Of a stretch of 64,000 nt of DNA, positions 16,380 through 55,100 are shown in pieces. This DNA is from Alphaproteobacteria bacterium (lineage in GTDB: Bacteria; Pseudomonadota; Alphaproteobacteria; CALMVH01), in NCBI GenBank assembly GCA_965199265.1, contig CBDAQV010000004.1, positions 128,884-192,883 on the forward strand. Reading direction: 5' to 3'. The position numbers and the translations under genes were made by a program. Position 1 is the first letter of the stretch; every line of letters begins with the position of its first letter. Below the pieces are notes generated by a model that searched no databases, was not told the DNA's origin, and was given only the letters and a program-made list of their open reading frames with translations.

Positions 16380-16964
16380 TCACCGCTCGTACTCAGGCTC
16401 CGGCTCGGACGGCTCCAAATACTCGCTGTGCGACAGGCCTTCGGTGGGGATATCGAGCTTCTTCAGCAACGCGTCGAGTTCGCCCTGGGTACAGAAGCCC
16501 AGCGCGACCGGGCTGCGAGGCTTGATGGTCGCCGCGTTCTCGTGCGTGCGGTTCTTGACGGCCGTGATCGTGGGCTTGGTCGTGCCGATCAGCTTGGCAA
16601 TCTGCACGTCGCTGAGGTCAGGCACGTTCTTCAGCAGCCAGGCTATGGCATCGGGCTTGTCGCCGCGCTTGGAAACAGGGGTGTATCGCGGCCCCTTGGT
16701 GCGGCTCGCGGGCGCGGGCAGGGTGCTTTCCAGCGCTATCAGGTTTGCGCCCGGTTCGTTCTCGCAGCGGGCAATCTCCTCGCGGGTCAGCAGGCCCTGC
16801 AGCACGGGGTCGGTGCCGACCATGCCGATCGCAACCTCGCCGTCGGCGATCGCCTGGACTTCCAGCTCGTGCAGGCTGCAGAATCGGGCGATCTGCCCAA
16901 AGGTCAGGGTCGTATTGTCGAGCAGCCAGACGGCCGTCGCCTTGGGCATAAGGGGCTGTGCCAT
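16380..16964 (-). CDS. DUF1013 family protein (alphaproteobacterial conserved, TrcR-like)
   Basis: MAQPLMPKATAVWLLDNTTLTFGQIARFCSLHELEV is the characteristic DUF1013 N-terminus. The start is at the ATG at 16964. Confidence 0.7.
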   Translation of the reverse strand: MAQPLMPKATAVWLLDNTTLTFGQIARFCSLHELEVQAIADGEVAIGMVGTDPVLQGLLTREEIARCENEPGANLIALESTLPAPASRTKGPRYTPVSKRGDKPDAIAWLLKNVPDLSDVQIAKLIGTTKPTITAVKNRTHENAATIKPRSPVALGFCTQGELDALLKKLDIPTEGLSHSEYLEPSEPEPEYER

Positions 16965-17093
16965 GTAAACTCCGGAATCGGGAGCGGCCGCGAGGGCATA
17001 AGCGGCGCTTCCCATGCTGAAATCGAGCCGCAGGCTAAACGGTTTCACCCTCAAATCAAGTCATTACTACGGCCTGATGGGGGAGGATCGCTT

Positions 17094-18680
17094 TCACTCA
17101 TGCCGGTTGCGGCAATCGGGAAGCGGCGCGCCTTGCAGCAAGGCAAAAGAATGATTCGGACCTAGGGCGAGGCCGATCACCGGGCTGCCTGCCTCACAGG
17201 GAAGCGCCAGCAAAACCGCAAAACCCGTCTTTGCCTTGGTCGCGAACCGCTGGTGCAGTTCGCCACTGCCGTAGGAGGTGGACGTGGCGTCGAGGACATG
17301 TCCGTCCTGGAACAGCGCCACGGACATCACGCCCCTGTCCGCCCGGGTGTCGACGGCCCAGCCGGTTACCTTCAGCATGCCGTTGATCTGCCCGGCCGCT
17401 TCCACCGCGCCGGCAAGGCTGGCGGACGAGGTCAGACCCGCCTTCCTTGCCGCGGCTTCGAGTTGCGGCTGCGTCGCGACAGGACCGGCGCTGGCGATCG
17501 CCACGGCGATCTTGCGCGCGTTCTCCTGCCGGACAGCCGCAACGTGAAGTTTCCACCCCGCCGGCGCGGCCACTCCGACGAGGATCAGCAGGTAGGCACA
17601 TACCGCCGCCCGAAGCGGCAAAGCCTTGACCCGCTTCAAGGACGACTTGAGATAGCGGTACAGCCGGACATCCAGCCGCCCGACCGGGAGCGAAAGCAGG
17701 ATAGCCAGGCTTACCCCCAGCACCCACAAGACGGCGAAAACGGGACTGCGGACGTGCTGGTAGAGCGAGCGGATGATCGGCACGTGAAGCAGGTACAAGG
17801 CATAGCTGTAATCACCGAAACGCGCGGCCGACCTGCCAATCCGGTTGTTGCCGAACTCGGGCCTTGCCTGCGCGACGCCGACCGCGCCGGCGACCACCAG
17901 CGTCGCGCCTGCCCCGAACAGCCACCGGCCGCCTTCATTGTCCAGGGGGTAGAGTCCGTACAGCGGCCACGCCGCCGCTCCCGTCACCATCAGCAGCAAC
18001 GGCGGAAGCCGCAGGCGAAGCAGGGCGGGTATGAGCAGCCCGCCGGCCATCCCGACATTCTCGCACACCGTCAGGATGCGCTGGACGGGGTAGACAAGGC
18101 CGCCGGGGTCTGGGCGCAGGAGGCTGGAGCCCGCCAGCATCGCCAGCCATGCGAGTGCGATCCATGACAGGCGGCGCGCAAGGCCGCACAGGGAAATAAC
18201 GAACAGCGAAGTGTAGAAGACCACCTCGAACACGAGGGTCCACTCGACCTTGAGAGGGTAGCGCGCCTCCGCGCCGACGGGGGCCAGGGTCAATGCCGCG
18301 AAGTTGACGTAGATCTGCTGATCGAGGGCCAGGTTCAGCAGCCAGAACAGCGCGACCACGCCGAGGAAGCCCGGATATATGCGGAGCACGCGATGTGCAA
18401 GAAACGTGAACGGCTCCTGCACACTCAGCGCAGTGGCCATCAGGTAGCCGGAGATGGAAAAGAACAGTGAAACTCCGAACATGCCGAAACGGCCGTCGAA
18501 CCACGAAATGAAACTGCCGTTTTCCAGGATCAGCACGCCGTAGATCGATGCGTGGTATAGCACCACCATGATAGCCGCCAGCGCCCGCAGCCACTGGATC
18601 TGCAGGTTTCGCGGTTGGACACCCAGGCGCGAATGTGGAACCGCTGCGGACACATCGACGGTTTCCGGCGTTGCGATCAT
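17094..18680 (-). CDS. acyltransferase 3 (OafA/YrhL/ExoZ-like) family membrane O-acyltransferase with ~150-aa C-terminal extracytoplasmic domain, paralog 1 of 4
   Basis: It has the AT3 N-terminal motif NLQIQWLRA...YHA...FGVSLFFSISGYLMA and multiple TM helices. The C-terminal domain carries GWAVD, ALFQDG and a terminal Cys. The ATGA overlap with paralog 2 indicates coupling. Confidence 0.8.
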   Translation of the reverse strand: MIATPETVDVSAAVPHSRLGVQPRNLQIQWLRALAAIMVVLYHASIYGVLILENGSFISWFDGRFGMFGVSLFFSISGYLMATALSVQEPFTFLAHRVLRIYPGFLGVVALFWLLNLALDQQIYVNFAALTLAPVGAEARYPLKVEWTLVFEVVFYTSLFVISLCGLARRLSWIALAWLAMLAGSSLLRPDPGGLVYPVQRILTVCENVGMAGGLLIPALLRLRLPPLLLMVTGAAAWPLYGLYPLDNEGGRWLFGAGATLVVAGAVGVAQARPEFGNNRIGRSAARFGDYSYALYLLHVPIIRSLYQHVRSPVFAVLWVLGVSLAILLSLPVGRLDVRLYRYLKSSLKRVKALPLRAAVCAYLLILVGVAAPAGWKLHVAAVRQENARKIAVAIASAGPVATQPQLEAAARKAGLTSSASLAGAVEAAGQINGMLKVTGWAVDTRADRGVMSVALFQDGHVLDATSTSYGSGELHQRFATKAKTGFAVLLALPCEAGSPVIGLALGPNHSFALLQGAPLPDCRNRHE

Positions 18681-20242
18681 GGGCAGGCCACCGGTGCGTT
18701 ATGGTCGGAAAGCACGGCGTACCTCCGGTCAGCGGTCAGGGCGACGGCGACCAGGGCGCGCCCCGGCCGGCACGCCGCCGGCAATGTGAGCGCGAAGCCG
18801 CTGTCCAGCCGCGCCCGATGCTGCCGGCGAATATCGAAGCGCGGTACGGTCATGATCGTGCTGCCCAGTAAAGCCCCGTCCTGGAACAGCGCCACGAAGA
18901 CACGGCTCGCATGCTTGCCGCCGTCGATCGCCCAGCCCGACGCCCCAAGGCCCGAGGAGGTCCAGGCGACCGTGTCGAGGCTGCCATCAAGTTCCGGCGC
19001 GGGTCGCAAGCCTGCTCGGGCTGCCACCTCGTCGGCCTGCCATGGGGTTGCGATGCGGCCGTTGCCTGCAAGGCTTCTGGCCAGGTTGGCGGCGATAACG
19101 GTGTTCTCGCGGTCCAGAACGTCGTTGCGGTACTGGAAAAGAACAAGGCTCACGAAAGCGGCAACGTACAGTGTCACGCCGCCGCGGAGCACAAGGGGAG
19201 AGATCCTGCGGAGCAAGGTCTTGACCTGGCGGTAGGAGGCAAGGTCCAAGGTGCCGAGCAGGGCGCCCGTGGCCAGCGCGCAGGCGATGGCAGCGGGTAC
19301 CAGAACCCAGGCCGGTAACTCCGGAAGCTGCGTGTAGACCAGCCTGATCACCGGAACATGGCAAAGGTAGAGCGCGTAGCTGTAATCGCCGCAGCGCGCG
19401 AAGCACCGGCCGACCGCACCGCTGCCAAACTCGGGCCGCAGCGCCGACAGCCGTATCGCAGCGGCGACGATCATAGCGCCCCCGATCCCCGCAAGCCATT
19501 GGTAAAAAGCAGAGTCCGGAGTTGCCGCGGCCCAGGCCCACACGCCCAGCCCTGCAAGCGCGAGCGGCAGGGGGCGGCAAGCGCTTCTCGCAACGGCCGG
19601 AACCAGCAGCCCGCCCGCCATGGCGACGTTGTCGGAAACGGTCAGCTTGCCGATCAGGAAGCCGGGGTGGACAAGCCGGATCAGGTCGCAGGCGGCAAGC
19701 ACCATCAGCCATAGCGCGGCGATACGGCCGATCGACGGCGCCCATTTCAGCAAGCCGGCCGCGAAGACCGAAACGTAGAAGGTGACTTCGCATACCAGCG
19801 TCCATTCGACGCCGAGCGGGTAGGCCACGTTGCCCATCGGAACGAGGGTCAGCGCCTTGGGGTCGATCGGCAGCCATTGCCCGCACAGCGTCGCCTGAAC
19901 CCAGTAAGCCGCGACCATGAACAGGAAAGGGGGATAGATCCGGGCGATGCGGTGCGACAGGAAGGGAACGGGTTCCTGCACGCGGATTGCCGTCGCCATC
20001 AGGTAGCCGGAGATGGCGAAGAACAGGCACACGCCGAAATGTCCCCAGCTGCGCGGAAAGAGCGCTGTAACTGCTTCGCGGTGAAGGATGAGGCCTTGGT
20101 ACATTCCGGCGTGGTGCAGTAGCACCATCAGCGCCGCCGCCGCGCGCAGCCACTGGATCGGCAGGTTGCGCTGCCCGCCCGAACGGGAATGCGGGACCAC
20201 GTCGCAGACCGCCGCCCCGCTAAATGCCCGGGGTCCGCTCAC
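18677..20242 (-). CDS. acyltransferase 3 family protein, paralog 2 of 4
   Basis: It has the same architecture as paralog 1. The start is probably the GTG at 20242, which overlaps the paralog 3 stop (GTGA). The ORF-track start at 20335 would overlap the upstream gene by 97 nt. Confidence 0.7.
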   Translation of the reverse strand: MSGPRAFSGAAVCDVVPHSRSGGQRNLPIQWLRAAAALMVLLHHAGMYQGLILHREAVTALFPRSWGHFGVCLFFAISGYLMATAIRVQEPVPFLSHRIARIYPPFLFMVAAYWVQATLCGQWLPIDPKALTLVPMGNVAYPLGVEWTLVCEVTFYVSVFAAGLLKWAPSIGRIAALWLMVLAACDLIRLVHPGFLIGKLTVSDNVAMAGGLLVPAVARSACRPLPLALAGLGVWAWAAATPDSAFYQWLAGIGGAMIVAAAIRLSALRPEFGSGAVGRCFARCGDYSYALYLCHVPVIRLVYTQLPELPAWVLVPAAIACALATGALLGTLDLASYRQVKTLLRRISPLVLRGGVTLYVAAFVSLVLFQYRNDVLDRENTVIAANLARSLAGNGRIATPWQADEVAARAGLRPAPELDGSLDTVAWTSSGLGASGWAIDGGKHASRVFVALFQDGALLGSTIMTVPRFDIRRQHRARLDSGFALTLPAACRPGRALVAVALTADRRYAVLSDHNAPVACP

Positions 20243-21834
20243 CGGCACGCTGGCGGCGACCGAGGGCCGGGCAGGAGTGCGTACCGCTTGTCGGCGGTCA
20301 CGGCGAAAACGTCCACGTGGATGCCCGGAAGGCACGCGGCCTTGCCGGTGAACGCAAACCCGCCGTATCGGGCGGAATGATAGGCGCGCCGCACATCCGG
20401 CCGGCTTTCACCTGTGACAACCGCGGTCAGGAAGCGCCCTCCCTGATAGGCGACCACGGCAAAGGGCGAGGGGTGCCTGCGATCGTAATCGACGGACCAG
20501 CCGCTGAGCGTCAGAGTGGGGCCGTCCCACCGTTCCTGCTCGACATTGCCGAGCAACGTTTGCGAGCGGACGAAGCCGGCCTTTTCCAGAGCTGAAACCG
20601 AATCCGTCGCCGGGGGGCTTGCGTCGCGGATCAGGGCAACAGCCGCGTTCGTTTGCCGGGCGCGCACGGCGGCATCGAGCGGCAGCAGGCTTGCCGAAAC
20701 GGAAACGGACAGGAAAATGCAAAGGTACAGGAGGACGAACGCCCGCACGGCCCAGATGTTCGTGTTCGTGATCAGGTGCTTCGAGCGCCGGTACAGGGAC
20801 ACTTCCGCCTGTCCAGCCAATGCTGCAACCAGAAGGCTGGCGACGACCCCCAACGGCCACAGCACGGCCGGCGGCGCAAGGCCAGACAGGGTGTAGACGG
20901 CCAGGATAACCGGAACGTGCACGAGGTAGAGCGCATAGCTGTAATCGGCGGCCTTCGCGCAACCGCGGCCAAGGCGTGTATCGCCGAACTCTGGCCGGCG
21001 CGCCGATTGCGCGACGGCTCCCGCAAGGATCAGAGCCGATCCCGACCCCAGTAGCCAGCGCATGCCGTCAATCGTATGTACCCGGAGCAGACCCACGAGG
21101 CATAGGAAGAACCCGGCGGCGGCCAGGGGAAGCGCCGGCGGCTTGCGCTCGATCAGCGAAGGTATCAGCATTCCCGCGGCAAGCGGCATCGCCGCAGGAT
21201 GCCGCAGGATCCATCCCAGGTAGATCCGGGCGGTTTCGCCATCTGGATGAAGGCAAGTCTGGCGGGCAAGGATCACAAGCCAGAGCCCTGCGATCCACGG
21301 CAGCCACCCTGAAAGCCGCAGCAAGCCCGCGAAGAAGAGGCTCACATAGAACGTGACCTCGAACATCAACGACCATTCGACGCCCAGCGGACCCCCTGTC
21401 TGACCGACCGGGGTCAGGAGGAAACTGCGCAGCTGGGGAATATCCACCGCTCCGGCAGGCCAGCTGATCGCGTAGCAAAGCGCATACACCAGCCACAGCA
21501 GCGGGTAGATCCGGACAATGCGATGCGCCAGGAACGGGACAGGCGCCTGTACCCGGATCGCCGTTGCCATCAGGTACCCGGAGACGGCGAAGAACAGGCA
21601 TACCCCGAACATGCCCGCGCTGTCGCCGAACAGTTTCAGGAACGCTCTGTCGTGCAGGCGGTCACCGGCGAAGTACGAAGCGTGATACAGCAGGACGCAC
21701 AGCGCGGCCGTGGCGCGCAGCCACTGGATCTGGAGGTTCTTGGGCGTGCCGCCCCGCTCCGCCCGGCGCTCCGGGTGCGGGACCGCGCTTTCCACAGGGT
21801 TTTCGGCATCGACGGCGAAGGGGATGGCGCTCAC
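20239..21834 (-). CDS. acyltransferase 3 family protein, paralog 3 of 4
   Basis: KNLQIQWLRATAAL...FGVCLFFAVSGYLMATAIRVQ is followed by a C-terminal domain with GWSVD...AYQGG...terminal PPACR. Confidence 0.8.
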   Translation of the reverse strand: MSAIPFAVDAENPVESAVPHPERRAERGGTPKNLQIQWLRATAALCVLLYHASYFAGDRLHDRAFLKLFGDSAGMFGVCLFFAVSGYLMATAIRVQAPVPFLAHRIVRIYPLLWLVYALCYAISWPAGAVDIPQLRSFLLTPVGQTGGPLGVEWSLMFEVTFYVSLFFAGLLRLSGWLPWIAGLWLVILARQTCLHPDGETARIYLGWILRHPAAMPLAAGMLIPSLIERKPPALPLAAAGFFLCLVGLLRVHTIDGMRWLLGSGSALILAGAVAQSARRPEFGDTRLGRGCAKAADYSYALYLVHVPVILAVYTLSGLAPPAVLWPLGVVASLLVAALAGQAEVSLYRRSKHLITNTNIWAVRAFVLLYLCIFLSVSVSASLLPLDAAVRARQTNAAVALIRDASPPATDSVSALEKAGFVRSQTLLGNVEQERWDGPTLTLSGWSVDYDRRHPSPFAVVAYQGGRFLTAVVTGESRPDVRRAYHSARYGGFAFTGKAACLPGIHVDVFAVTADKRYALLPGPRSPPACR

Positions 21835-21890
21835 CCGGCGGCAGGTAGCACGGCTTTCCTCCGGCGATCAATACGCGCCACCCTCGTTGC

Positions 21891-23483
21891 TCAACAAGGC
21901 GGGGGCAAGCGGCTGGGCAGCACGGAAAACCGCTTGGTCGCCGTGAAGGCGAGCGCGATGACCGGTGCGCCCGCGCTGCAGGAAACAGGCTGCTGGATCA
22001 GGTAACCGGGCCGGCCCGCATGGTGGTAGACGCGTTGCACGTCGCGCCGTGGCAGGTCGGCCAGCCCGCTGCCGATCAGGCGCCCCCCCTGGAAAAGGGC
22101 GATCGCGAGCGCTTCATGCTGTTTGCCGGTATCGGCCGCCCAGCCGCGAACGGTCAGCTCGCCGCCGTTCCGTTCGGCAAGCTCCACATTGCCCAGGATC
22201 GCGTCGGAGCGGGCAAGACCGGCCTCCGTCGCCGCTTCGGCGGCATCCTGCGGGCCAAGGACCGCGTTTCTGCCAGCCAGGAACTGCAGGAAGGGATGGG
22301 CCTCGTCCAGGCGGCGTTGGGCCGCATGCCGGGCGTAGCTGGCCTGAAAGGCGGCAAGGGCGAACACAAGGAGGTAGGCCAGCGTCACGTTTCGAACGAA
22401 CGGAAGCGACGCCCGGGTCAGCGCGGCTTTCAGGCGTTTGTACACCGTCATGTCGGCCTTGCCGACCACGGCGCCTGCAAGCAGCGCCGCCGCGATCGCC
22501 AGGAACCACAGCTTCCGTGGCGGGTAGCGTCCCGCCAGCCTGTAAACGGCCAGGATGACAGGCACGTGACACAAGTAGAGCGCATAGCTGTAGTCCCCGC
22601 CGCGGGCGAAGGCCCGGCCGAGCGCGTTGTCGCCGAGGGAAGGCCGCTTTGCCGACAGGCCGACCACCCCGGCGAGGATCAGTGTGGCGCCTATGCCGTA
22701 GAGCCAACGGCTGTGATCGAGGTTCTGCTGCTGCCAGAGTTGCAAGCAGCAGCTTGCCGCCCCCGCGGTGATCCACAGCGCCGGCGAAACGTGCCGGCGC
22801 AGAAGGGTGGGGATCATCAGCCCGCCGGCCAGCGGCACACAGGCGGAGCTGAAAAGGATCTCTCCTATCAGGTAACCGGGACGGGCGTCGTCCGGATGAA
22901 CCCCGCTGGCGATCGCAAGCACGGCCAGCCAGCCGAGCGCGATCCACGGCAAGCGCAAGACCCACCCCATGGCCCCGATCGCAAAGATCGCGACGTAGAA
23001 ACTCACCTCGAAAACCAGGGTCCATTCCACTTGCAGCGGAAAGACCACGGCGCCCGCAGGCACCAGCAACAGCGCGTCGAAATCGACTGAAAACGGCGTG
23101 CCGGCCAGCAATCGTACGGCATAGACGCCGGCGTAAACGGCAAGGAATACCGGGTAGATGCGAACGATCCGGTGCGACAGGAAGGTGGCCGGCGCCTGTA
23201 CCCGGATCGCGGTCGCCATAAGGTAGCCCGAGATCGCAAAGAACAGCGATACGCCGAACAGGCCGCATCGCCCGTCGAAAAGCGTTGCGAAACCGCCAAA
23301 GCGCAGCAGGCTGCCCGCATAGGCCGACGCATGGTAAACCACGACCGTGAAGGCCGCGACGGCACGTAGCCACTGGATCTGCAGGTTCCGCGGCGTGTCG
23401 CCGCGCCCGGCATGTCGCGGCGGGTGCGGGACGGCAGTCTCCACCGCCTGGGTTGTACCCGGCTGGCTATCGATGATGTGCAC
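21891..23483 (-). CDS. acyltransferase 3 family protein, paralog 4 of 4 (first gene of array)
   Basis: RNLQIQWLRAVAAF...FGVSLFFAISGYLMATAIRVQ is followed by a C-terminal domain with GWAAD...ALFQGG...PPPC. Confidence 0.8.
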   Translation of the reverse strand: MHIIDSQPGTTQAVETAVPHPPRHAGRGDTPRNLQIQWLRAVAAFTVVVYHASAYAGSLLRFGGFATLFDGRCGLFGVSLFFAISGYLMATAIRVQAPATFLSHRIVRIYPVFLAVYAGVYAVRLLAGTPFSVDFDALLLVPAGAVVFPLQVEWTLVFEVSFYVAIFAIGAMGWVLRLPWIALGWLAVLAIASGVHPDDARPGYLIGEILFSSACVPLAGGLMIPTLLRRHVSPALWITAGAASCCLQLWQQQNLDHSRWLYGIGATLILAGVVGLSAKRPSLGDNALGRAFARGGDYSYALYLCHVPVILAVYRLAGRYPPRKLWFLAIAAALLAGAVVGKADMTVYKRLKAALTRASLPFVRNVTLAYLLVFALAAFQASYARHAAQRRLDEAHPFLQFLAGRNAVLGPQDAAEAATEAGLARSDAILGNVELAERNGGELTVRGWAADTGKQHEALAIALFQGGRLIGSGLADLPRRDVQRVYHHAGRPGYLIQQPVSCSAGAPVIALAFTATKRFSVLPSRLPPPC

Positions 23484-23645
23484 CGTCCGGCAGGTAGCAC
23501 GCGGCCCCGCAAGCGATCAACAAGCTGGCCCCGCTACGACCGTCCTTCCGGCCGCAAGGCCGCAATCTATGCTGGCGTTGAAGCGACACCATAGGCAAGG
23601 AACCGAAAAAACCGATTGTGGCACTGCCGCGTCAAGGGCTTGCAG

Positions 23646-24233
23646 TCAAGCGTGCCCGGCTTCCTGCGACAGCATCAGCGGGTTGATCCCCAGCCGCTCC
23701 AGCGCGCGTTCCCATTTGTCGTCCAGGGTCGTGTCGAACAGGATGGCCTTCTCCGCCGGAGCGGACAGCCAGCCGTTCGAGCGGATCTCGTCGTCCAGCT
23801 GCCCCGGGCCCCAGCCGGCGTAGCCCAGCGCGAACAGGCTCTGGCTGGGGCCGTGCCCCTCGGCGATGGCGCGCAGGATGTCCAGCGTGCCGGTCACGCC
23901 GATGCCGCCCGACACCAGCATGGTGTCCGAGCGCAGGAAGTCCGTGGAATGCAGCACGAAACCGCGCCCGGACTCGACCGGCCCGCCGAAATGCACCTGC
24001 CGGTCGGCGACGATGTCGCCCGAGGCGATGCCGAGCTGGTTCAGCAGGTCGCTGAAGGTGATGCTGGCGAAGGCGCGGTTGACCACCAGCCCCATCGCCC
24101 CGTCCGCGTTGTGCGAGCAGACGTAAAGCACCGTGCGCTGGAAGCGCGGGTCAAGCATGGTCGGCATCGCGATCAGCATCTGCCCGCCAAGATACCCGTT
24201 CTGTTCGTCCGTCTCGCCCTGTAGCAATGTCAT
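23646..24233 (-). CDS. YqgE/AlgH family protein (UPF0301)
   Basis: LIAMPTMLDPRFQRTVLYVCSHNADGAMGLVVN is the typical YqgE/AlgH signature. Confidence 0.8.
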   Translation of the reverse strand: MTLLQGETDEQNGYLGGQMLIAMPTMLDPRFQRTVLYVCSHNADGAMGLVVNRAFASITFSDLLNQLGIASGDIVADRQVHFGGPVESGRGFVLHSTDFLRSDTMLVSGGIGVTGTLDILRAIAEGHGPSQSLFALGYAGWGPGQLDDEIRSNGWLSAPAEKAILFDTTLDDKWERALERLGINPLMLSQEAGHA

Positions 24234-31783: not shown

Positions 31784-34642
31784 GTGACTCCGGACTATTT
31801 CATCCGCAAGTGGAAAGCCGCGACCCTGTCCGAACGGGCGGGGGCGCATTCGCATTTCCACGATCTGTGCGCGCTGCTTGACGAGGCGACGCCCAGCGAA
31901 AGCGATCCCACGGGGGCGACCTATGCCTTTGAGAAAGGCGTGACCAAGACCACCGGCGGCGATGGCTGGGCCGACGTGTGGAAGCGCGGCTGCTTCGCGT
32001 GGGAATACAAGGGCAAGGGCAAGGACCTGCAGGCAGCCTACGCGCAATTGCAGCGCTACGCCGTCGCGCTGGAGAATCCGCCTTTGCTGATCGTCTCGGA
32101 CATCGACAGTATCGAGATTCACACCAACTGGACCAACACGGTCCGCCAGATACACCGCATCACCCTGGACGATCTGGCGGACGCGAAGGAGCGCCAGAAA
32201 CTGAAATGGGCGTTCAGCGATCCCGACCGGCTGAAGCCGGGCGAAACGCGGCAGGGCCTGACGGAGAAAGCGGCGGAGCAGTTCGCCAGCCTCGCGCAGC
32301 GCCTCAGGGCGCGCGGCTACGAGGCCCCGCGCGTCGCGCACTTCGTCAACCGGCTGGTGTTCTGCATGTTCGCGGAGGATGTCGGCCTGCTGCCGGACAA
32401 GCTGTTCATCAAGCTGATGCAGGCAGGCGCAAAGAACCCTGCGGCGTTCGAGCAACTGGCGCGCGGCCTGTTCGGCGCGATGCGCGGCGGCGGCTTCCTC
32501 GGCCTCGACCCGGTGCCATGGTTCAACGGCGGGCTGTTCGACGACGACGACGCGTTGCCGCTCGACCGGCACGACCTGGAACAGACGCTGGCGGCGGCGC
32601 GGCTCGATTGGGCCGAAATCGACCCTTCCATCCTCGGTACCCTGTTCGAGCGCGGGCTGGACCCCGACAAGCGCAGCCAGCTCGGCGCGCACTACACCGA
32701 CCGCGACAAGATCATGCTGATCGTGGAGCCGGTGATCGTCCGCCCGCTGGCGCGCGAGTGGGAAGACGCCAGGGCCGAGGCGCAAGCCTTGCTGGACCGG
32801 GCCGAGGCGGCGAAATCGCCCGCCGCGCGCACCAAAGCGCGCAAGGAGGCGGAGGCCGTCTGCATCCGCTACCTCGAACGGCTGAAGAATTTCCGCGTCC
32901 TCGACCCCGCCTGCGGCTCGGGCAATTTCCTGTACCTGGCGCTGCTGGCGCTGAAAGACATCGAGCACCGCGCCAATCTGGAATCCGAGGCCATGGGCTT
33001 GCCCCGCCGCCTTATCATCGGTGTCGGACCCGAAAACCTGCTGGGGATCGAGATCAACCCCTACGCCGCCGAACTGGCGCGCGTGTCGGTGTGGATCGGC
33101 GAAATCCAGTGGATGCTGCGCCACAATTACGGCACCTCGCGCGACCCGATCCTGCGCTCCCTCAACACCATCGAATGCCGCGACGCCCTGCTGAACCCGG
33201 ACGGCACGGAAGCACAGTGGCCGAGGGCGGACGTGATCGTGGGAAATCCGCCGTTCCTGGGTGGGAAGCGCATGCGTTCATCGCTTGGGGATGGCTATTG
33301 CGCCACGCTCTTCAGCATATATGCGAAGCGAGTTCCCGCCGAGGCAGACCTTGTCTGTTACTGGTTTGCCAAGTCGCGCGAAGCGCAACAAAACGGATTG
33401 CTGAAGCGCGCCGGACTGGTCGCCACGAACAGCATTCGCGGCGGTGCGAACCGTGACTGTCTTGAGCGCATCGTTGCAGCCGGGAGCATTTCCGCCGCAT
33501 GGAGCGATGAGCCGTGGGTTCTGAACGGCGCTGCCGTGCGCGTGTCCCTCGTCTGCTTTGATCCGAAGCCTGGCGAAAGCGCCATGCTGAATGGCAAGCC
33601 TGTTACCGTGATTCGCAGCGATCTGACTGCCAACGCCTCCGACCTTACGACTGCGCGACAACTCGCCTCCAACCGGAGTGTCGCTTTCATGGGCGATACC
33701 AAAGGGGGAGCATTCGACATTCCCGGCGAGCTTGCTCGTGAATGGCTGCAATTGCCCGCGAATCCGAACGGCAGGCCGAACAGTGATGTGATAAAGCCAT
33801 GGGCAAATGGCATGACTGTTACCCGGCGTCCTGCGGATATGTGGGTTGTTGATTTCGGCTGGACCATGAGCGAGGCAGAAGCCTCATTTTATTCGGCTCC
33901 ATTTGCCTATGTGGCAGATTGCGTTAAGCCGGAACGTCTGAAAAATAACCGGGAAGCGTACGCAAAGTTCTGGTGGCGGCATGTTGAACCGCGACCAGGA
34001 ATGCTTGCTAAGTTTCAAATTGTAAAACGTTTCATAGTGACAACTCGTGTAGCGAAGCACCGGACGTTCGTTTGGATGAGCTTACCGACACTTCCCGATA
34101 GCGCAGTAATTGCTATAGCCCGCGACGACGATACGAGTTTCGGCATCCTGCACAGCCGGTTTCATGAATTGTGGTCATTGGGCCTGTGCACATGGCTTGG
34201 CGTTGGGAACGATCCGCGCTACACGCCCCGAACGACGTTCGAGACATTCCCCTTCCCGCCGGGGCTGGAGCCGCACGTGCCTGCCGCCCTCTATGCCGAC
34301 GACCCGAGGGCGCAGGCGATTGCCGAGGCCGCGCGCACATTGGTCGAGGCGCGGGACCGTTGGCTGAACCCGCCCGAACTGATCGACATCGTGCCGGAAG
34401 TCGTGCCCGGCTACCCCGACCGCATCGTGCCCCGCGACGCGCGCGCCGCCGCGATCCTAAAAACCCGCACCCTCACCAACCTCTACAACACGCGCGGCAA
34501 ACCCGAAGGCGCATGGCTGGACCACCTGCACCACGACCTCGACTCAGCCGTAGCCGCCGCCTACGGCTGGCCCGCCGACCTGCCCGACGAGGACGTGCTG
34601 GCGCGGTTATTGGAGATGAATTTGGGAAAGCACATCTCCTGA
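31784..34642 (+). CDS. MmeI-family Type IIL restriction-modification enzyme (single polypeptide: N-terminal D-X9-E-X-K endonuclease, gamma-class N6-adenine methyltransferase with NPPF motif, C-terminal TRD)
   Basis: It aligns with MmeI blocks I recall: GWADVWKRGCFAWEYKGKGKDL (D-X9-EYK), VNRLVFCMFAEDVGLL, QLGAHYTDRDKI, VLDPACGSGNFLYLAL (motif I) and VIVGNPPFLGG (motif IV). GC drops from ~64% to ~52% over the TRD portion (33250-34200). Confidence 0.8.
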   Translation: MTPDYFIRKWKAATLSERAGAHSHFHDLCALLDEATPSESDPTGATYAFEKGVTKTTGGDGWADVWKRGCFAWEYKGKGKDLQAAYAQLQRYAVALENPPLLIVSDIDSIEIHTNWTNTVRQIHRITLDDLADAKERQKLKWAFSDPDRLKPGETRQGLTEKAAEQFASLAQRLRARGYEAPRVAHFVNRLVFCMFAEDVGLLPDKLFIKLMQAGAKNPAAFEQLARGLFGAMRGGGFLGLDPVPWFNGGLFDDDDALPLDRHDLEQTLAAARLDWAEIDPSILGTLFERGLDPDKRSQLGAHYTDRDKIMLIVEPVIVRPLAREWEDARAEAQALLDRAEAAKSPAARTKARKEAEAVCIRYLERLKNFRVLDPACGSGNFLYLALLALKDIEHRANLESEAMGLPRRLIIGVGPENLLGIEINPYAAELARVSVWIGEIQWMLRHNYGTSRDPILRSLNTIECRDALLNPDGTEAQWPRADVIVGNPPFLGGKRMRSSLGDGYCATLFSIYAKRVPAEADLVCYWFAKSREAQQNGLLKRAGLVATNSIRGGANRDCLERIVAAGSISAAWSDEPWVLNGAAVRVSLVCFDPKPGESAMLNGKPVTVIRSDLTANASDLTTARQLASNRSVAFMGDTKGGAFDIPGELAREWLQLPANPNGRPNSDVIKPWANGMTVTRRPADMWVVDFGWTMSEAEASFYSAPFAYVADCVKPERLKNNREAYAKFWWRHVEPRPGMLAKFQIVKRFIVTTRVAKHRTFVWMSLPTLPDSAVIAIARDDDTSFGILHSRFHELWSLGLCTWLGVGNDPRYTPRTTFETFPFPPGLEPHVPAALYADDPRAQAIAEAARTLVEARDRWLNPPELIDIVPEVVPGYPDRIVPRDARAAAILKTRTLTNLYNTRGKPEGAWLDHLHHDLDSAVAAAYGWPADLPDEDVLARLLEMNLGKHIS

Positions 34643-44320: not shown

Positions 44321-46888
<2,568 letters not shown>

Positions 46889-47005
46889 TCACCGGGAACG
46901 GGCAGGTTCCAACCTAGGATCATTGCCCGGAACGCCGATCAACAGCAAAAAAGTTCTTGTTATGTTCTTTATTCTACAGTATGATTTTAGTGCTCTGGAG
47001 GTAGA

Positions 47006-47854
47006 ATGTTCGAAGTTCAAAAAGCTATGCTGACGATCAACGGCCGAGGCCTGCTGTTTGCAGGCAAGCACGTCCTTGCGCCCCTAGGTTCCGCAACGCG
47101 ACGCTTTAACTTGGAATACGATCTTGAACCGGTTCTAGCTCAGCTCACTGCAGGCTATATGCGACCTGTCAATACCCGTACGGTGTCGCTGCTTTACTCC
47201 GCGCTAGCAGCTTGGAACAGGGGTGATTTTGGGCGTGCTGCTTACGACTTGATTCTGACAAGTCTTCCCGATCCGAAGGACAACACTAATTTTTACGAGC
47301 GCATCGAGGCCGTAGACAAGGCTATCGCGACAGGTCGCCGTCCAAAGGACGTTCTGAAAACGTTTGGCGTGAACCCTGCGTGGATGGACGAAGCCCGCGT
47401 TCCGGCCGGTCAGACCGATGCAGGCGAATGGGTTAGCGGCGATAACGATACAGGAGATGTCACAAATATTGCCGCTCACAGCGGAGATCCGTCCATCAGG
47501 TGGAATGCAAAGGTGAAAGCTCTGCCTCAATCGTCGCTCGATGCTTTGAGAACGGCCATGCGCCTCGAAGATTTGCCTGCAAATCAGTTCGATGATATGG
47601 CATGGATAATGGCCCAGGAGTCCCAGGGCGTCGTTGGTGTTCCGAACAATCGCGGTGGAAGTGCTAGTGGTCTTTTCCAGTTGCAGCCATCAAACTATCA
47701 TTTTTATCCAAACGGAGCGAAATCGATCGGAAATGCCGTTGAGGAGGCACAAGGAGGAATTCGCTATATGCTATGGAAGTACGGTAATGCCGCCAGAGCA
47801 AAAGCCGCATGGGTTAAAAATTATAATGTAAACCCTAACAATCCTTTTTGGTAA
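47006..47854 (+). CDS. hypothetical protein with C-terminal lytic-transglycosylase (SLT/lysozyme-like) motif; low GC (~47%); candidate peptidoglycan-targeting effector
   Basis: A GGAGG RBS precedes the start. AQESQGVVGVPNNRGGSASGLFQLQPSNY fits the SLT catalytic E-S...GLMQ pattern. GC is far below the host value. Confidence 0.5.
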   Translation: MFEVQKAMLTINGRGLLFAGKHVLAPLGSATRRFNLEYDLEPVLAQLTAGYMRPVNTRTVSLLYSALAAWNRGDFGRAAYDLILTSLPDPKDNTNFYERIEAVDKAIATGRRPKDVLKTFGVNPAWMDEARVPAGQTDAGEWVSGDNDTGDVTNIAAHSGDPSIRWNAKVKALPQSSLDALRTAMRLEDLPANQFDDMAWIMAQESQGVVGVPNNRGGSASGLFQLQPSNYHFYPNGAKSIGNAVEEAQGGIRYMLWKYGNAARAKAAWVKNYNVNPNNPFW

Positions 47855-47856
47855 AA

Positions 47857-48429
47857 ATGAAGTACATTCTCGTAGTGATGAGCCTATTCTTTCTCACCAC
47901 GGCAATTACGCATGCCGAAGAAACTCGTGATCTTTTTAAATACTATAATGTTAAGGAAATTTTTCGTGGTGGAAAACATGCTGTTGTGCTTCGAACAAAA
48001 CAAGATCATTTGATGCGCACGGCCCTGAGGGGGGGGTACGAGCTCCATAGAGTAGAATTCGCTGGCCACTACATTGTTCTCACGATTGGATGTGGTGCTG
48101 CCTGTTTCGGCGGCGCGGTGGTCGATGCCATCACCGGAAACGTGACGTGGTTCCCTTTCTTGGAAATGTCAGTGACCGATTATTTCGAGCCGGTTTCGTA
48201 CTGCCGCAACAGTCGCCTGATCCGCTTCGTGGGTGAAACCGCGCGCGACCCGCGCAACGCCGCTTATTTTTATGAATTGCGCAACGACCAGTTTCGTCTT
48301 GTGAAAACCGTCCTCCTGCCGCCCCCCAGGGACGGACTCATCGGCGATCCTCCCAAATGGCAGGACATGTACAGCAGCAATCCCGCCTATTGCACTCCCG
48401 TCAGCGAAACGCCGCGGAACTACCTGTGA
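47857..48429 (+). CDS. hypothetical periplasmic protein with signal peptide (MKYILVVMSLFFLTTAITHA); candidate cognate immunity protein; low GC
   Basis: It lies immediately downstream of, and co-directional with, the transglycosylase-like gene. It has the same low GC and a cleavable signal peptide. Confidence 0.5.
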   Translation: MKYILVVMSLFFLTTAITHAEETRDLFKYYNVKEIFRGGKHAVVLRTKQDHLMRTALRGGYELHRVEFAGHYIVLTIGCGAACFGGAVVDAITGNVTWFPFLEMSVTDYFEPVSYCRNSRLIRFVGETARDPRNAAYFYELRNDQFRLVKTVLLPPPRDGLIGDPPKWQDMYSSNPAYCTPVSETPRNYL

Positions 48430-52131: not shown

Positions 52132-55100
52132 TCAGCTATGCCAAGCGGCGAGCACGGCCGCGTTGAGAGTCGCGTCACCCGGCATGGCAGCGCCCGTTGC
52201 CTGCGGATTGAAGCCGGGATGCGCGGCGGAAAAGCCTGCCATTGCGTTCACCAGCGTGTTCACCGCTGAATCAAGCTTCAGCCCGCTGCCGTCCACGATC
52301 TTCAATACCTGAGAGTAAGCATTGCCGTACCAGTTCTGGATCGTGACCTGGTCCCTGGTGCCCAGTACGTCGATCACCAGATTGTTGCCGACCTTTGCCA
52401 GCCATAGCCCGGTATCCGCAATGCCCGACGCGAAGTCCACCTGCCCAGCCGCCGCGTTCGCCGGAGCCACGCCGTTCACGATCGTGACCGCACCGTCGCC
52501 CCGGCCAAAGTCGTAGGTGTCCGACCCGCCGTTGCCTGTCAGAACGCTCGTTCCGCCCGCTTGTGCGTGTCCGCGTAATGTGTCGTCGTACTGTGTTCCC
52601 GTGACGCTGGTGTAACCGCCCAGGACCTGGCCGGAGACCGAGCTGGTTCCGGCGGAAAGGTCTACGGAGGCTCCTGCCGTCTGGCTGCTTTCGTCGAGGG
52701 TAAAGCTTACCGTCTGGACGTTTCCGGTGACCAGCGAAGCCTTGTTGACGCCGCTGAGCACCACGGTCTGGCCATTGTCGGATTTGATTGTCGTGCCGTC
52801 GATATTGAAGTTGCCGATCAGCGCCGTGGTCGGGGTGGCGCCGTAGGGAAGGATTTGCGCGCTTGCGATGGTCAGCCCGTTCATGAACCATATGACCGCT
52901 GGCGAGTCCGGGTTCGGCGTGTTCGCGGCCAGCAGGATATCGGCGTCTCCATCACCGTTGAAATCGCCGACCCCCGCGATGTGGTACCCCGGCAGTACCT
53001 GCGCGCCGTAGGCGCCGCCCAGCGCCGCTGCGCCGATCACCGTGCCGGTGCCGCTCATCTCCCACAATACCGGGGTGGCGGACCCGTTGTCCCACAGGAT
53101 GTCGCTGATGCCGTCGCCATTGAAGTCGCCGATCCACGCCTTGGTGGACGTCGCTCCGTAGGGCAGCACGGACGCGCCTGCCACGGCAAGGCCGTTCATG
53201 TACCAGATCACGGCGGGCGAGTTCGGGTTCGGGACGTTCGCCGCCCATAGGATGTCGCTTTTTCCATCGCCGTTGAAGTCACCGACGCCTGCGATGTGAT
53301 ACCCGGGCAGGACCGGCATCCCCGGCCCGCCGCCGATCCAACCGGCGGCGATGACCTGGTTGTTTTTCATCTCCCACAGGAACGGGGCCGCGCCGCCCTC
53401 GTCCCACAGAATGTCCGTGGTGCCGTCGCCGTCGAAGTCGCCGGCCCATACCTTGCTGCTGGCGCTTCCGTAGGGCAGGACCTCGCCTGAAACCAGCGTG
53501 CCGTTTCCAATGTTCCAGATCACGTCCGGCGCGAAAGGACTGGCATTGTTGGCGGTCAGCAACAGGTCGCTGGTTCCGTCTCCATTAAAATCGCCCACCG
53601 CGGCGACGTGGTAGCCGGGCAGAACGTCCGACCCGAAACTTCCGCCCAGCGCCGCCGCGCCCTTGACCGCCGCGCCGTTCAGTTCCCAGGTCACGGGCGT
53701 GAGCGAGCCGTAGTTCCACACAAGGTCGCTGATGTCGTAGTTCGAGGTCGCGTAGGACGTCGCGCCCATCAGCTGTACGGCGTCGCCGCTGCTTCCCGCG
53801 TGGAAATTGGTTATCGTATTGGTCAGGCCGGCCACCGTGAAACGGAATTGGTTCTGCCCGGCCGACCCGGTCAGGGTGCCCGATGCGCCGGGCAGGACCA
53901 GGTGAATGGGCACGACCACGTGAACGGGCACGCCGGTCGGCGCAGGCGCGGGAGCGCTGGAGCCTGTGCTTCCCGAAGTCGTTCCCTGGGAAGGGGGCGT
54001 GGCGGCCGGCGCATTGGGCAGGACTTCGATGATGACCGGATCAGCCGACAAGCCGACCGAAACCGTGGCGGCATCGGTCAGCGACTGGATGGCAGACGTC
54101 CCTTGCATCGGATCGTAGACATTGATGTTCTGGAAAGCGGAGCCGAAAGTAACGGTTACATTCGAAGTCGGCGGCGTTGTGTCCGCGGTGCCGTTGGAAA
54201 CGGCCGCATTGTCATTCCAGATGACGATATCGAAAGCCCCGTTCGATTTCTCCAGCAGCGTCGAAGTGGCGGTGCTTGGCAGGCCGGCCAGGCTGTAGTC
54301 CAGCGTCCCCGGGTTCGTCACAGTGCCGCTGTCGGCCAGGATGGCGAACAGGTCGTGCAAGTCGTTCGCGGCCGCCTTGGGCGTTCCGTCGGCGTTGAAC
54401 AGGCCGAAATTGCTCTCCTGATCGGCAGGCGAGTCCTCGTCATCCATCAGTTCATAAAGGAAAGTTTTGGCAGCCCCGTCCTTGTAGCCGTCCAGAACGG
54501 CATTGAGATCGATGATGCCCTGGGTTTTCGGGTCTGTTACGCCCCAAGTCGAACTGCCGTAACCCGAGCTCGAAATGCCCGTCTCGGTGATATAGACAGG
54601 CTTTCCGGGAGCGCTGGCCTTGGCCGCGGCGATGCCGGACAGCATGTTGTTCTGCAACTGCTGGCCGACCCCGGCGTAAACGTGCCAGTTAGAAGCGTCT
54701 ACGTACTGGCCGACACTGGCCCCGGAACTGGCGTTGGCGGTAGATGCCGCCACGATTTTCACCCCGGCCAGACTGGGATCGGCTTCGACCGCGCTTTGCA
54801 GATTTTGATCGTCGAGGGCGCCCCAGGCAATGTTTCCGGTCGAAGACTCTCCGTTCAGCGTCAGCTTGTTGACATTGTATTCGTTCTCGCCTTCGATGCT
54901 TTCTATACTGCCCGGCGCGGCAGCTTCGAGAGTATTGTCGACCTGCAGATCCTTGGCGGCGTCGACCGTCGGACCATTCTGGAGCAGATCGAACTTAACG
55001 CCGGTTTGAGCGAGTGCGACGTATTCTGAAAGAGCCCAGCTGAAAGGGTCGCCATCGCGTATGTTCTTCACGCCGAGGTAGGCGACTGCGTTTTCGACGT

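What the first reader, a model, noticed from the sequence alone, without database searches (positions are those of the whole stretch)
17094..23483. Tandem array of four divergent acyltransferase-3 paralogs sharing an uncharacterised Cys-containing C-terminal domain
Four consecutive genes on the minus strand each encode a ~530-aa AT3 (OafA/ExoZ-like) membrane O-acyltransferase. Paralogs 3-2-1 are linked by ATGA/GTGA start-stop overlaps; paralog 4 sits 56 nt upstream. The copies are old duplications (perhaps 40-50% identity by eye), not a recent amplification. Each ends in a ~130-150-aa non-membrane domain with shared motifs: GW(A/S)xD, ALFQ(D/G)G, R.DV...Y, a conserved internal Cys and a Cys at or near the C-terminus. 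This is not the SGNH domain fused to OafA-type enzymes, and I cannot assign it. Four co-transcribed acyltransferases suggest combinatorial O-acylation of a surface polysaccharide (EPS/LPS/peptidoglycan). The periplasmic-looking C-terminal domain may be a substrate-recognition module.
Basis: seen in the sequence. Interest (0 to 1): 0.6.

Follow-up and report, generated by a model that had tools for sequence, protein, structure and literature searches.

The report
Four acyltransferases with Ig-like tails
Four old tandem copies of a membrane sugar-acylating enzyme each carry, instead of the usual SGNH partner domain, one outward-facing copy of a widespread but unnamed Ig-like module otherwise found in cell-wall hydrolases. 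This enzyme layout is not covered in the three papers on these enzymes that I checked.

Summary
Four consecutive minus-strand genes (17094-23483) encode 521-531-aa AT3 (PF01757) acyltransferases that are 39-47% identical. They are joined by ATGA and GTGA overlaps plus one 56-nt gap. All four keep the AT3 catalytic motifs (R-X10-H, FFxISG, RxxR).

The C-terminal domain is real. It follows an 11th transmembrane helix and a long stalk helix, and AlphaFold2 models it confidently (pLDDT 93) as two short helices plus a beta-sandwich. It is not SGNH and matches no Pfam model.

The module is not unique to these genes. A profile of it finds about 9,000 protein clusters, mostly long proteins with 4-15 tandem copies. 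These copies are fused to peptidoglycan hydrolases (SpoIID, GH25, CHAP, amidase, M23, VanY). Some of them also match Pfam Big_7.

A Cys covariation pattern points to a disulfide and therefore a periplasmic location.

Related uncultured alphaproteobacteria carry 2 or 3 copies at the same housekeeping locus (AlgH-like / TrcR). A Rhodanobacter homologue lies inside an O-antigen cluster.

Most likely these are periplasm-facing glycan O-acyltransferases in which a glycan-binding Ig-like module selects the acceptor. The substrate is unknown. I rate this a new variant of a known kind, of moderate interest.

The parts
21891..23483 (-). P4: AT3 acyltransferase, 530 aa. AT3 core is aa 35-337, TMH11 plus stalk helix aa 360-405, Ig-like module aa 426-530.
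   Evidence: ORF. PF01757 E = 1.5e-23. Motifs R40-X10-H51, FFAISG at 81 and RIVR at 105. Full-length AlphaFold2 model with pLDDT 92.7 and pTM 0.91.
20239..21834 (-). P3: AT3 acyltransferase, 531 aa, GTG start, 56 nt downstream of the P4 stop.
   Evidence: (E = 2.9e-25).
18677..20242 (-). P2: AT3 acyltransferase, 521 aa. Its GTG start overlaps the P3 stop (GTGA).
   Evidence: The shorter start is supported by the paralogue alignment.
17094..18680 (-). P1: AT3 acyltransferase, 528 aa. Its ATG start overlaps the P2 stop (ATGA). It is the orthologue of the last gene in the 2-copy arrays of related genomes.
   Evidence: The tree groups it with P0005, P0008 and P0011.
21894..22208 (-). P4 C-terminal Ig-like beta-sandwich module (core, 105 aa).
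   Evidence: AlphaFold2 pLDDT 92.9 for aa 385-530. Local HMM match E = 1.8e-28. hhalign to repeat units from hydrolase-type proteins gives 99.3% probability.
20242..20565 (-). P3 C-terminal Ig-like module.
   Evidence: E = 8e-26.
18680..19000 (-). P2 C-terminal Ig-like module.
   Evidence: E = 2.7e-28.
17097..17426 (-). P1 C-terminal Ig-like module. The otherwise nearly invariant Arg of the RPDV motif is lost here (GSGELHQRF).
   Evidence: E = 5.6e-23.
22269..22406 (-). P4 TMH11 plus the continuous stalk helix (aa 360-405) that carries the module out of the membrane.
   Evidence: DSSP on the full-length model shows helix 360-405, with hydrophobic core at 366-382.
23493..23520 (-). Promoter-like element TTGATCGC-N11-CGTGCTACC upstream of P4. 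It ends about 10 nt before the GTG start.
   Evidence: Similar TTGAT...GTTAGC elements lie upstream of the first AT3 gene in L009 and L010. The E. coli-type consensus scan did not flag it.
21844..21871 (-). Second copy of the same promoter-like element, inside the 56-nt P4/P3 gap.
   Evidence: Gap-free alignment of the two upstream regions. TTGATCGC and CGTGCTACCTGCCG are identical and in register with the start codons.
23646..24233 (-). Upstream flank: AlgH-like (DUF179) gene, a synteny anchor.
   Evidence: PF02622 E = 3e-50. The same gene precedes the AT3 arrays in L009, L010 and L011.
16380..17054 (-). Downstream flank: TrcR (DUF1013) gene, a synteny anchor.
   Evidence: PF06242 E = 5e-56. 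The same gene follows the array in L009.

Best explanation
Each of the four genes encodes an inner-membrane, acyl-CoA-dependent O-acyltransferase of the AT3 family.

Shown or predicted directly from sequence:
- A complete AT3 core with all known essential motifs.
- An extra 11th transmembrane helix that continues as a long stalk helix.
- A C-terminal Ig-like beta-sandwich with two short helices packed on it.
- This domain is homologous to a widespread repeat module of cell-wall hydrolases.

Inferred:
- The module lies in the periplasm and is held by a disulfide.
- It binds the acceptor glycan and positions it over the periplasmic mouth of the AT3 pore.
- There the conserved TMH1 histidine site transfers the acyl group directly, as proposed for AT3-only enzymes such as Oac, because no SGNH domain is present.
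- The four copies differ in their modules and periplasmic loops, so they probably act on different sugars, positions or polymers of the cell envelope.

P3-P2-P1 are translationally coupled. P4 and P3 each appear to have their own copy of a promoter-like element.

The array is a lineage-specific expansion (2, 3 or 4 copies) at a fixed housekeeping locus. It is not part of a polysaccharide gene cluster.
For: - AT3 identity: PF01757 matched over profile positions 3-323 of 326 in all four copies.
- Motifs: R-X10-H, FFxISG and RxxR are present in all four. The motif definitions and their essentiality come from PMC7448272 and PMC9833829.
- Full-length model: pLDDT 92.7, pTM 0.91, with 10 helices, then helix 360-405, then the sandwich.
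- Topology: K+R count is 16 per 102 residues on the inside against 8 per 93 on the outside, with the N-terminus inside. This matches the OafB-type layout of 11 TMH with the C-terminus outside.
- Disulfide: in 71 full-length homologues one Cys is invariant. Its partner is either a C-terminal Cys (47 sequences) or a Cys in the 'FxCG' strand (22 sequences). Two sequences have both and none has neither.
- Module homology: 9,255 cluster representatives at E <= 1e-3 and 2,963 at E <= 1e-10. hhalign to repeat units gives 99.3% probability, E = 2e-20.
- Module partners: SpoIID in 4 proteins, GH25 in 2, and VanY, M23, Amidase_2, Glucosaminidase and LGFP in 1 each, plus CHAP.
- The unclassified C-terminal domain of the EfAmi1 endolysin is a homologue (E = 4e-7). 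Its authors proposed it as a new carbohydrate-binding module (PMC10167349).
- The Rhodanobacter homologue with the same architecture lies between wzm/wzt and RgpF glycosyltransferases in an O-antigen cluster.
- Synteny with 2 and 3 copies in related genomes.
Against: - No experiment bears on any member of this subfamily.
- No ligand-binding site was identified.
- Foldseek found only generic Ig-like matches with TM-score below 0.46.
- Among the window genes I scanned there are no glycan biosynthesis genes, so the acceptor cannot be named.
- P1 and its orthologue P0008 have lost the nearly invariant Arg of the module, so the module may not bind the same way, or at all, in every copy.
- The disulfide and the topology are inferred from sequence patterns.
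Confidence: 0.6

Rival explanations
1. The acceptor is peptidoglycan. The arrays would then be a PatA/PatB-independent and OatA-independent peptidoglycan O-acylation system in a Gram-negative lineage, with the Ig-like module docking on glycan strands.
For: - In 60 multi-repeat proteins, the module's partner domains are overwhelmingly peptidoglycan-active: SpoIID, GH25, VanY, M23, Amidase_2, Glucosaminidase and CHAP.
- The EfAmi1 endolysin C-terminal domain is a homologue.
- The locus is a conserved housekeeping neighbourhood rather than a strain-specific polysaccharide island.
Against: - The only homologue with an informative neighbourhood (Rhodanobacter) sits in an O-antigen cluster.
- Four diverged copies are hard to reconcile with the uniform glycan backbone of peptidoglycan.
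- The hydrolase-linked repeats look mostly Gram-positive by sequence style (taxonomy not checked), and their ligand could be a wall polysaccharide rather than peptidoglycan itself.
Confidence: 0.2
2. The C-terminal module is not a glycan binder. It would be a structural or protein-docking domain, for example a lid over the pore, an oligomerisation domain, or a platform that recruits a separately encoded SGNH-type transferase.
For: - Ig-like folds often mediate protein-protein contacts.
- Foldseek hits are generic Ig or nanobody-like.
- The pTM of 0.91 suggests a fixed position relative to the AT3 core.
- AT3-only WecH can hand acetyl groups to soluble PatB (review PMC9558356), so separate partners are possible.
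Against: - No SGNH/GDSL gene lies among the window genes examined.
- The module's recurrence as long tandem arrays on secreted wall hydrolases fits a polymer-binding role better than a specific protein partner.
Confidence: 0.15
3. The array is partly redundant or decaying. Only some copies would be active enzymes, and the others would be drifting duplicates.
For: P1 has lost the module's conserved RPDV Arg. Copy number varies between 2, 3 and 4 among relatives.
Against: - All four ORFs are intact and keep every essential AT3 motif.
- All four retain both Cys.
- The copies are about 40% identical yet still full-length, which implies long purifying selection.
- P1 has conserved orthologues in several genomes.
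Confidence: 0.1

Closest known systems
OafA / OafB / OatA (AT3-SGNH fused O-acetyltransferases)
   Same: Both have a 10-TMH AT3 core with R-X10-H, FFxISG and RxxR, an 11th TMH that places a C-terminal soluble domain outside the cytoplasm, and Cys residues consistent with disulfides in that domain. Like oafA and oafB, the genes lie away from any polysaccharide cluster.
   Different: The C-terminal domain is a ~105-aa Ig-like beta-sandwich, not a ~200-aa SGNH alpha/beta domain. No SGNH-family Pfam model is matched at E <= 1. A second catalytic step carried out by SGNH is therefore not available in cis.
AT3-only acyltransferases (Oac, ExoZ, WbaK, Lag-1, GumF/GumG)
   Same: They lack SGNH, so the AT3 domain itself presumably performs the transfer. 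JGI names many relatives 'ExoZ'. From my own knowledge, not tested here: GumF and GumG are adjacent AT3 paralogues that acetylate different mannoses of xanthan, which is a precedent for position-specific tandem paralogues.
   Different: Those proteins stop after TMH10. The proteins here add TMH11, a stalk helix and the Ig-like module.
C-terminal domain of the Enterococcus faecium prophage endolysin EfAmi1 (sequence of PDB entry 8C4D; domain not resolved), together with the tandem repeat modules of SpoIID-, GH25-, CHAP-, M23- and amidase-containing proteins
   Same: Homologous module with shared GW.D, RPDV and GF motifs. Actinobacterial-type repeats also carry two Cys. The EfAmi1 authors proposed a carbohydrate or cell-wall-binding role.
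   Different: Here the module is a single copy, attached to a membrane acyltransferase in Proteobacteria, and preceded by two helices. No member of either group has an experimental structure or a demonstrated ligand.
Pfam Big_7 (PF17957, bacterial Ig domain)
   Same: In 8 of 60 multi-repeat relatives the same repeats pass Big_7 (best E = 2.8e-19). The fold is a beta-sandwich.
   Different: None of the 51 AT3-fused modules matches Big_7 even at E <= 10. The link is only transitive.

Membership tests
Acyltransferase-3 (AT3, PF01757) | Match to the Pfam model above the gathering score | tested here: met
   83.8-89.9 bits against a cut-off of 31, covering profile positions 3-323 of 326, for all four proteins.
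Acyltransferase-3 (AT3, PF01757) | R/K-X10-H motif in TMH1 (catalytic His) | tested here: met
   R32/H43 in P1, R33/H44 in P2, R40/H51 in P3 and P4. Motif definition. H51 is invariant in 71 homologues.
Acyltransferase-3 (AT3, PF01757) | FFxISG motif and the RxxR motif at TMH3 | tested here: met
   FFSISG, FFAISG, FFAVSG and FFAISG; RVLR, RIAR, RIVR and RIVR.
Acyltransferase-3 (AT3, PF01757) | 10-TMH core fold | tested here: met
   The AlphaFold2 model has 10 helices with hydrophobic cores between aa 34 and 357. This is a prediction, not an experiment.
Acyltransferase-3 (AT3, PF01757) | Acyl-CoA-dependent O-acylation of an extracytoplasmic glycan | not testable with these tools
   Needs biochemistry or genetics.
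AT3-SGNH fused acyltransferases (OafA/OafB/OatA type) | C-terminal SGNH/GDSL domain with a Ser-(Asp)-His triad | tested here: not met
   No SGNH or GDSL family is matched at E <= 1. The tail is a ~105-aa beta-sandwich.
AT3-SGNH fused acyltransferases (OafA/OafB/OatA type) | 11th TMH that places the C-terminal domain outside the cytoplasm | tested here: met
   Helix 360-405 with hydrophobic core 366-382. Positive-inside bias of 16 to 8. Cys covariation.
AT3-only acyltransferases (Oac/ExoZ type) | Protein ends after TMH10 with no extra domain | tested here: not met
   About 170 further residues follow, comprising TMH11, the stalk and the module.
OpgC/MdoC (NCBIfam NF003014) | Score above the equivalog cut-off | tested here: not met
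   12-13.4 bits against a cut-off of 338.
Pfam Big_7 (PF17957) | Direct match of the C-terminal module to the model | tested here: not met
   0 of 51 AT3-fused modules match at E <= 10. Homologous repeats in other proteins do match (8 of 60), so the link is at superfamily level only.
Unnamed 'GW.D / RPDV / GF' repeat module of cell-wall hydrolases (includes the EfAmi1 C-terminal domain) | Significant profile-profile and profile-sequence similarity across the whole unit | tested here: met
   hhalign gives 99.3% probability, E = 2e-20, over 99 columns. hmmsearch hits reach 1e-73. EfAmi1 scores E = 0.0024 with the AT3-tail profile and 4e-7 with the repeat profile.
Unnamed 'GW.D / RPDV / GF' repeat module of cell-wall hydrolases (includes the EfAmi1 C-terminal domain) | Binding to a cell-envelope glycan | not testable with these tools
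   No ligand has been shown for any member. The EfAmi1 paper only infers it.

The most novel reading that the evidence does not exclude
AT3 plus Ig-like module may be a third, so far undescribed bacterial AT3 architecture. In it a non-catalytic glycan-binding domain replaces SGNH and dictates acceptor choice. The 2-4-copy arrays at the AlgH/TrcR locus of this uncultured alphaproteobacterial lineage would then form a previously unknown housekeeping system that places several distinct O-acyl marks on a core envelope polymer, possibly peptidoglycan, independently of PatA/PatB and OatA.
Probability: 0.2. Interest if true: 0.7.

Novelty: new variant of a known kind. Interest (0 to 1): 0.45.

Why it matters
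The AT3 field has an open question, stated in the 2022 review (PMC9558356): how do AT3 proteins without an SGNH domain complete the transfer and choose their acceptor? A natural family in which SGNH is replaced by a small binding-type domain gives a direct handle on that question. Four diverged copies side by side also make module swaps and truncations easy to design.

Separately, the tail turns out to be one copy of a very abundant module (about 9,000 protein clusters). The module is typical of peptidoglycan hydrolases and of one described endolysin, yet it has no Pfam model of its own, no solved structure and no known ligand. Defining it would improve the annotation of many wall-active enzymes, including candidate enzybiotics.

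If the acceptor proved to be peptidoglycan, this would be a new O-acylation route in Gram-negative bacteria.

Tried and rejected
- A word-indexed homology search with the four tails alone found nothing. The 8,000-candidate limit was probably filled with low-information matches. The full-length query worked.
- The genome-contig scan with the four-paralogue alignment chose AT3-generic peptide patterns.
- Exact look-ups of P4 and P1 (P0001, P0004) found no contig on record, so the window's own assembly and organism name could not be retrieved. A GcvT search placed the genome only as an uncultured alphaproteobacterium, with about 60-63% identity to Rhodospirillales genera.
- Foldseek against PDB and BFVD with the tail model gave only generic Ig or nanobody-like hits, with TM-score at most 0.46. 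The full-length model gave nothing significant.
- SGNH, OpgC/MdoC and direct Big_7 membership were tested and rejected.
- Recent amplification or gene conversion is rejected, because no long identical DNA stretches exist among the copies.
- The E. coli-type promoter scan found no promoter, and the terminator count equals the shuffled expectation. The promoter-like element therefore rests only on its duplication and on similar elements in two related loci.
- Rfam found only one tRNA in the window.
Full report
**1. Observation**

The region 17094-23483 holds four consecutive minus-strand ORFs:
- P1, 17094-18680, 528 aa.
- P2, 18677-20242, 521 aa from the GTG at 20242.
- P3, 20239-21834, 531 aa.
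- P4, 21891-23483, 530 aa.

The sequence shows ...CCATGATCG... at the P2/P1 junction (ATGA) and ...CCGGTGAGC... at the P3/P2 junction (GTGA). A 56-nt gap separates the P4 stop from the P3 start.

All four match Pfam Acyl_transf_3 across essentially the whole model, with E about 1e-24. They are 39-42% identical to P1 and 41-46% identical to P4. At DNA level only blocks of 60-80% identity remain, with no long identical stretches.

The last ~105-146 residues align among the four at about 30% identity. GW..D, Q.G and two Cys are invariant. No Pfam or NCBIfam model matches this part.

**2. The enzymes are intact**

The features that define functional AT3 proteins are the R/K-X10-H motif of TMH1, FFxISG, and RxxR at TMH3. 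They were defined and shown to be essential in PMC7448272 and PMC9833829. All are present in all four copies. His51, F81, F82, S85, G86, R105 and R108 (P4 numbering) are invariant across 71 full-length homologues.

A W-x4-E pair (W154/E159 in P4) has the same spacing as OafB W138/E143, which the eLife paper lists among important extracytoplasmic residues. I did not align the two proteins, so this correspondence is inference.

**3. Architecture and topology**

A full-length AlphaFold2 model of P4 was built on 71 homologues. It is confident throughout (pLDDT 92.7, pTM 0.91).
- Ten helices with hydrophobic cores lie between aa 34 and 357.
- One continuous helix spans aa 360-405. Its core at 366-382 is membrane-like, so this is TMH11 plus a stalk.
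- A short helix (411-420) and a seven-strand sandwich with one inserted helix follow.

With the N-terminus inside, K+R residues are twice as frequent in the predicted cytoplasmic segments (16 per 102) as in the periplasmic ones (8 per 93).

A Cys pattern gives independent support for an extracytoplasmic location. In all 71 homologues one Cys is invariant. It is accompanied by a Cys at the C-terminus in 47 sequences, by a Cys in the 'FxCG' strand in 22, by both in 2, and by neither in none. Alternative partners of this kind are what a conserved disulfide would produce. I could not measure distances because model coordinates are not exposed.

**4. What the C-terminal domain is**

The isolated domain (P4 aa 385-530) models at pLDDT 92.9 as two helices plus a beta-sandwich. 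Foldseek against PDB and BFVD gives only generic Ig-like, nanobody or CBM-like sandwiches with TM-score at most 0.46.

Sequence profiles are far more informative. An exhaustive HMM search with the 111-position core profile finds 9,255 cluster representatives at E <= 1e-3 and 2,963 at E <= 1e-10. The best hits are 450-2,500-aa proteins with 4-15 tandem copies of the unit. Their repeat units share the same GW.D, RPDV and GF motifs. In actinobacterial-type proteins the units also carry two Cys.

Profile-profile comparison of the AT3 tails with 35 such repeat units gives 99.3% probability and E = 2e-20 over 99 columns.

Among 60 of these multi-repeat proteins the accompanying catalytic domains are:
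- SpoIID (4 proteins) and GH25 (2 proteins).
- VanY, Peptidase_M23, Amidase_2, Glucosaminidase and LGFP (1 each).
- CHAP, seen in a further protein.
- In 8 proteins the repeats themselves pass Pfam Big_7.

The only PDB-listed sequence with the module is the Enterococcus faecium prophage endolysin EfAmi1 (8C4D). It scores E = 0.0024 with the AT3-tail profile and 4e-7 with the repeat profile. Its C-terminal domain was lost from the crystals. [quoted passage not shown]

So the tail is not an orphan. It is a single copy of a very common Ig-like module of wall-active enzymes that still lacks its own family model, a structure and a ligand.

**5. Distribution and evolution of the AT3 fusion**

About 70 clusters of 490-575-aa proteins share the full architecture. 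Named examples come from Rhodanobacter, Pseudoxanthomonas spadix and Methylorubrum/Methylobacterium. Sources annotate them only as 'acyltransferase family protein', 'OafA/YrhL' or 'ExoZ'.

The closest relatives are in unnamed metagenome assemblies whose GcvT is 70-74% identical to the window's. Named Rhodospirillales genera are at about 60-63%.

In those assemblies the genes lie at the same locus as in the window: gcvTHP - APH-type kinase - RNase H - ... - AlgH-like - [AT3 array] - TrcR - Suv3-like helicase. One has 2 copies and another has 3.

A neighbour-joining tree gives this picture:
- P1 groups with the last gene of the 2-copy arrays.
- P3 and P4 form their own clade, and P2 stands alone.
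- The 3-copy array is an independent expansion.

Copy number at this locus is therefore evolving through lineage-specific duplication.

**6. Clues to the substrate**

Among the window genes I scanned there are no glycan biosynthesis genes. The identified neighbours include HtpG, a FadB-like dehydrogenase, gcvTHP, gyrB, an MmeI-type restriction enzyme and an FG-GAP protein.

The Rhodanobacter homologue lies between wzm/wzt (with Wzt_C) and two RgpF glycosyltransferases, next to the rml genes. This is a classical ABC-transporter-type O-antigen cluster. A small unannotated ORF in that cluster also carries the module.

The Methylorubrum-type homologue has an uninformative neighbourhood.

The two lines of evidence point in different directions. 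The module's usual partners suggest peptidoglycan or wall polymers, while the one informative neighbourhood suggests O-antigen. I therefore commit only to 'an extracytoplasmic envelope glycan'.

**7. Mechanism proposed**

The AT3 pore presents the acyl-CoA thioester at the periplasmic face, following the model of PMC9833829. The Ig-like module sits on the stalk above the pore and captures the acceptor glycan. The TMH1 His site then transfers the acyl group directly, since no SGNH domain is present in cis.

The divergent modules and loops of the four copies would give different site or polymer specificity. P1 and its orthologue P0008 have lost the module's nearly invariant Arg, which suggests a changed or reduced binding mode in that copy.

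Architecture, motifs and homology are shown. Location, disulfide, binding and specificity are inferred.

**8. Expression**

The overlaps couple P3, P2 and P1.

The 56-nt P4/P3 gap contains a gap-free copy of the element that precedes P4. TTGATCGC and CGTGCTACCTGCCG are identical in both places and at identical distances from the start codons. Comparable TTGAT...GTTAGC elements precede the first AT3 gene in the 2- and 3-copy loci.

From my own knowledge, this resembles alphaproteobacterial housekeeping promoters. It would put the transcription start at or within a few bases of the GTG, which would give leaderless mRNAs. The E. coli-type scan does not flag it, so this is a lead only.

**9. Comparison with what is known**

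The three papers I checked describe AT3-only, AT3-SGNH, NRF-AT3 (eukaryotes) and AT3-racemase (VanT) layouts. None of the passages retrieved from them mentions an AT3 fused to an Ig-like or binding-type module.

The proteins here pass every testable AT3 criterion. They fail the defining SGNH criterion of the OafA/OatA group. They are not AT3-only either.

**10. Verdict**

The function remains inferred. I rate this a new variant of a known kind, of moderate interest. The more general by-product is the recognition of an abundant, unmodelled wall-enzyme module.

Noticed in passing
window 23493-23520 and 21844-21871 (minus strand): The promoter-like element TTGATCGC-N11-CGTGCTACCTGCCG is duplicated in register upstream of both P4 and P3. 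It ends 8 nt before each GTG start, which hints at two transcription units and possibly leaderless mRNAs.
   Followed up: partly
window 17097-17426 (P1 module); also P0008 in L009 11557-13116: In P1 and its orthologue P0008 the nearly invariant Arg of the module's RPDV motif is replaced (GSGELHQRF and SPGDIRQRF). Other orthologues (P0005, P0011) keep it.
   Followed up: partly
window 31784-34642 (+): A 952-aa MmeI-family type IIL restriction-modification enzyme (MmeI_N, MmeI_hel, MmeI_Mtase). It borders a low-GC stretch (34-36 kb, GC 0.57 against about 0.65 elsewhere) and may be an acquired island.
   Followed up: no
window 46001-48000: A second low-GC stretch (GC 0.566) lies just upstream of gyrB (44321-46843, minus strand). 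Its content was not examined.
   Followed up: no
L012 12800-13468 (minus strand), Rhodanobacter O-antigen cluster: A small ORF with no Pfam hit (called gene of 196 aa) carries one copy of the same Ig-like module (E = 3.5e-7). It lies next to the AT3-module gene and the RgpF glycosyltransferases.
   Followed up: no
L010 6766-11626 and L011 1139-5999: A three-copy AT3-module array (546, 533 and 541 aa, with overlapping stops and starts) sits directly after the AlgH-like gene. In the tree these three copies group together, apart from the window's copies, so this is an independent expansion at the same locus.
   Followed up: partly
window 52132-55251 (minus strand): A 1,039-aa protein with FG-GAP repeats, probably a large secreted or surface protein. 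No link to the AT3 array is evident.
   Followed up: no
window 20243-20335 (minus strand): The mechanical ORF for P2 extends 31 codons upstream to another GTG and would overlap P3 by 97 nt. The extension has no counterpart in the paralogues and is probably not translated.
   Followed up: yes
proteins P0112-P0261: The GW.D / RPDV / GF module occurs in up to 15 tandem copies in proteins of up to about 2,500 aa. It has no Pfam model of its own: only 8 of 60 sampled proteins pass Big_7, and no structure has been solved. It is a candidate new domain family.
   Followed up: partly
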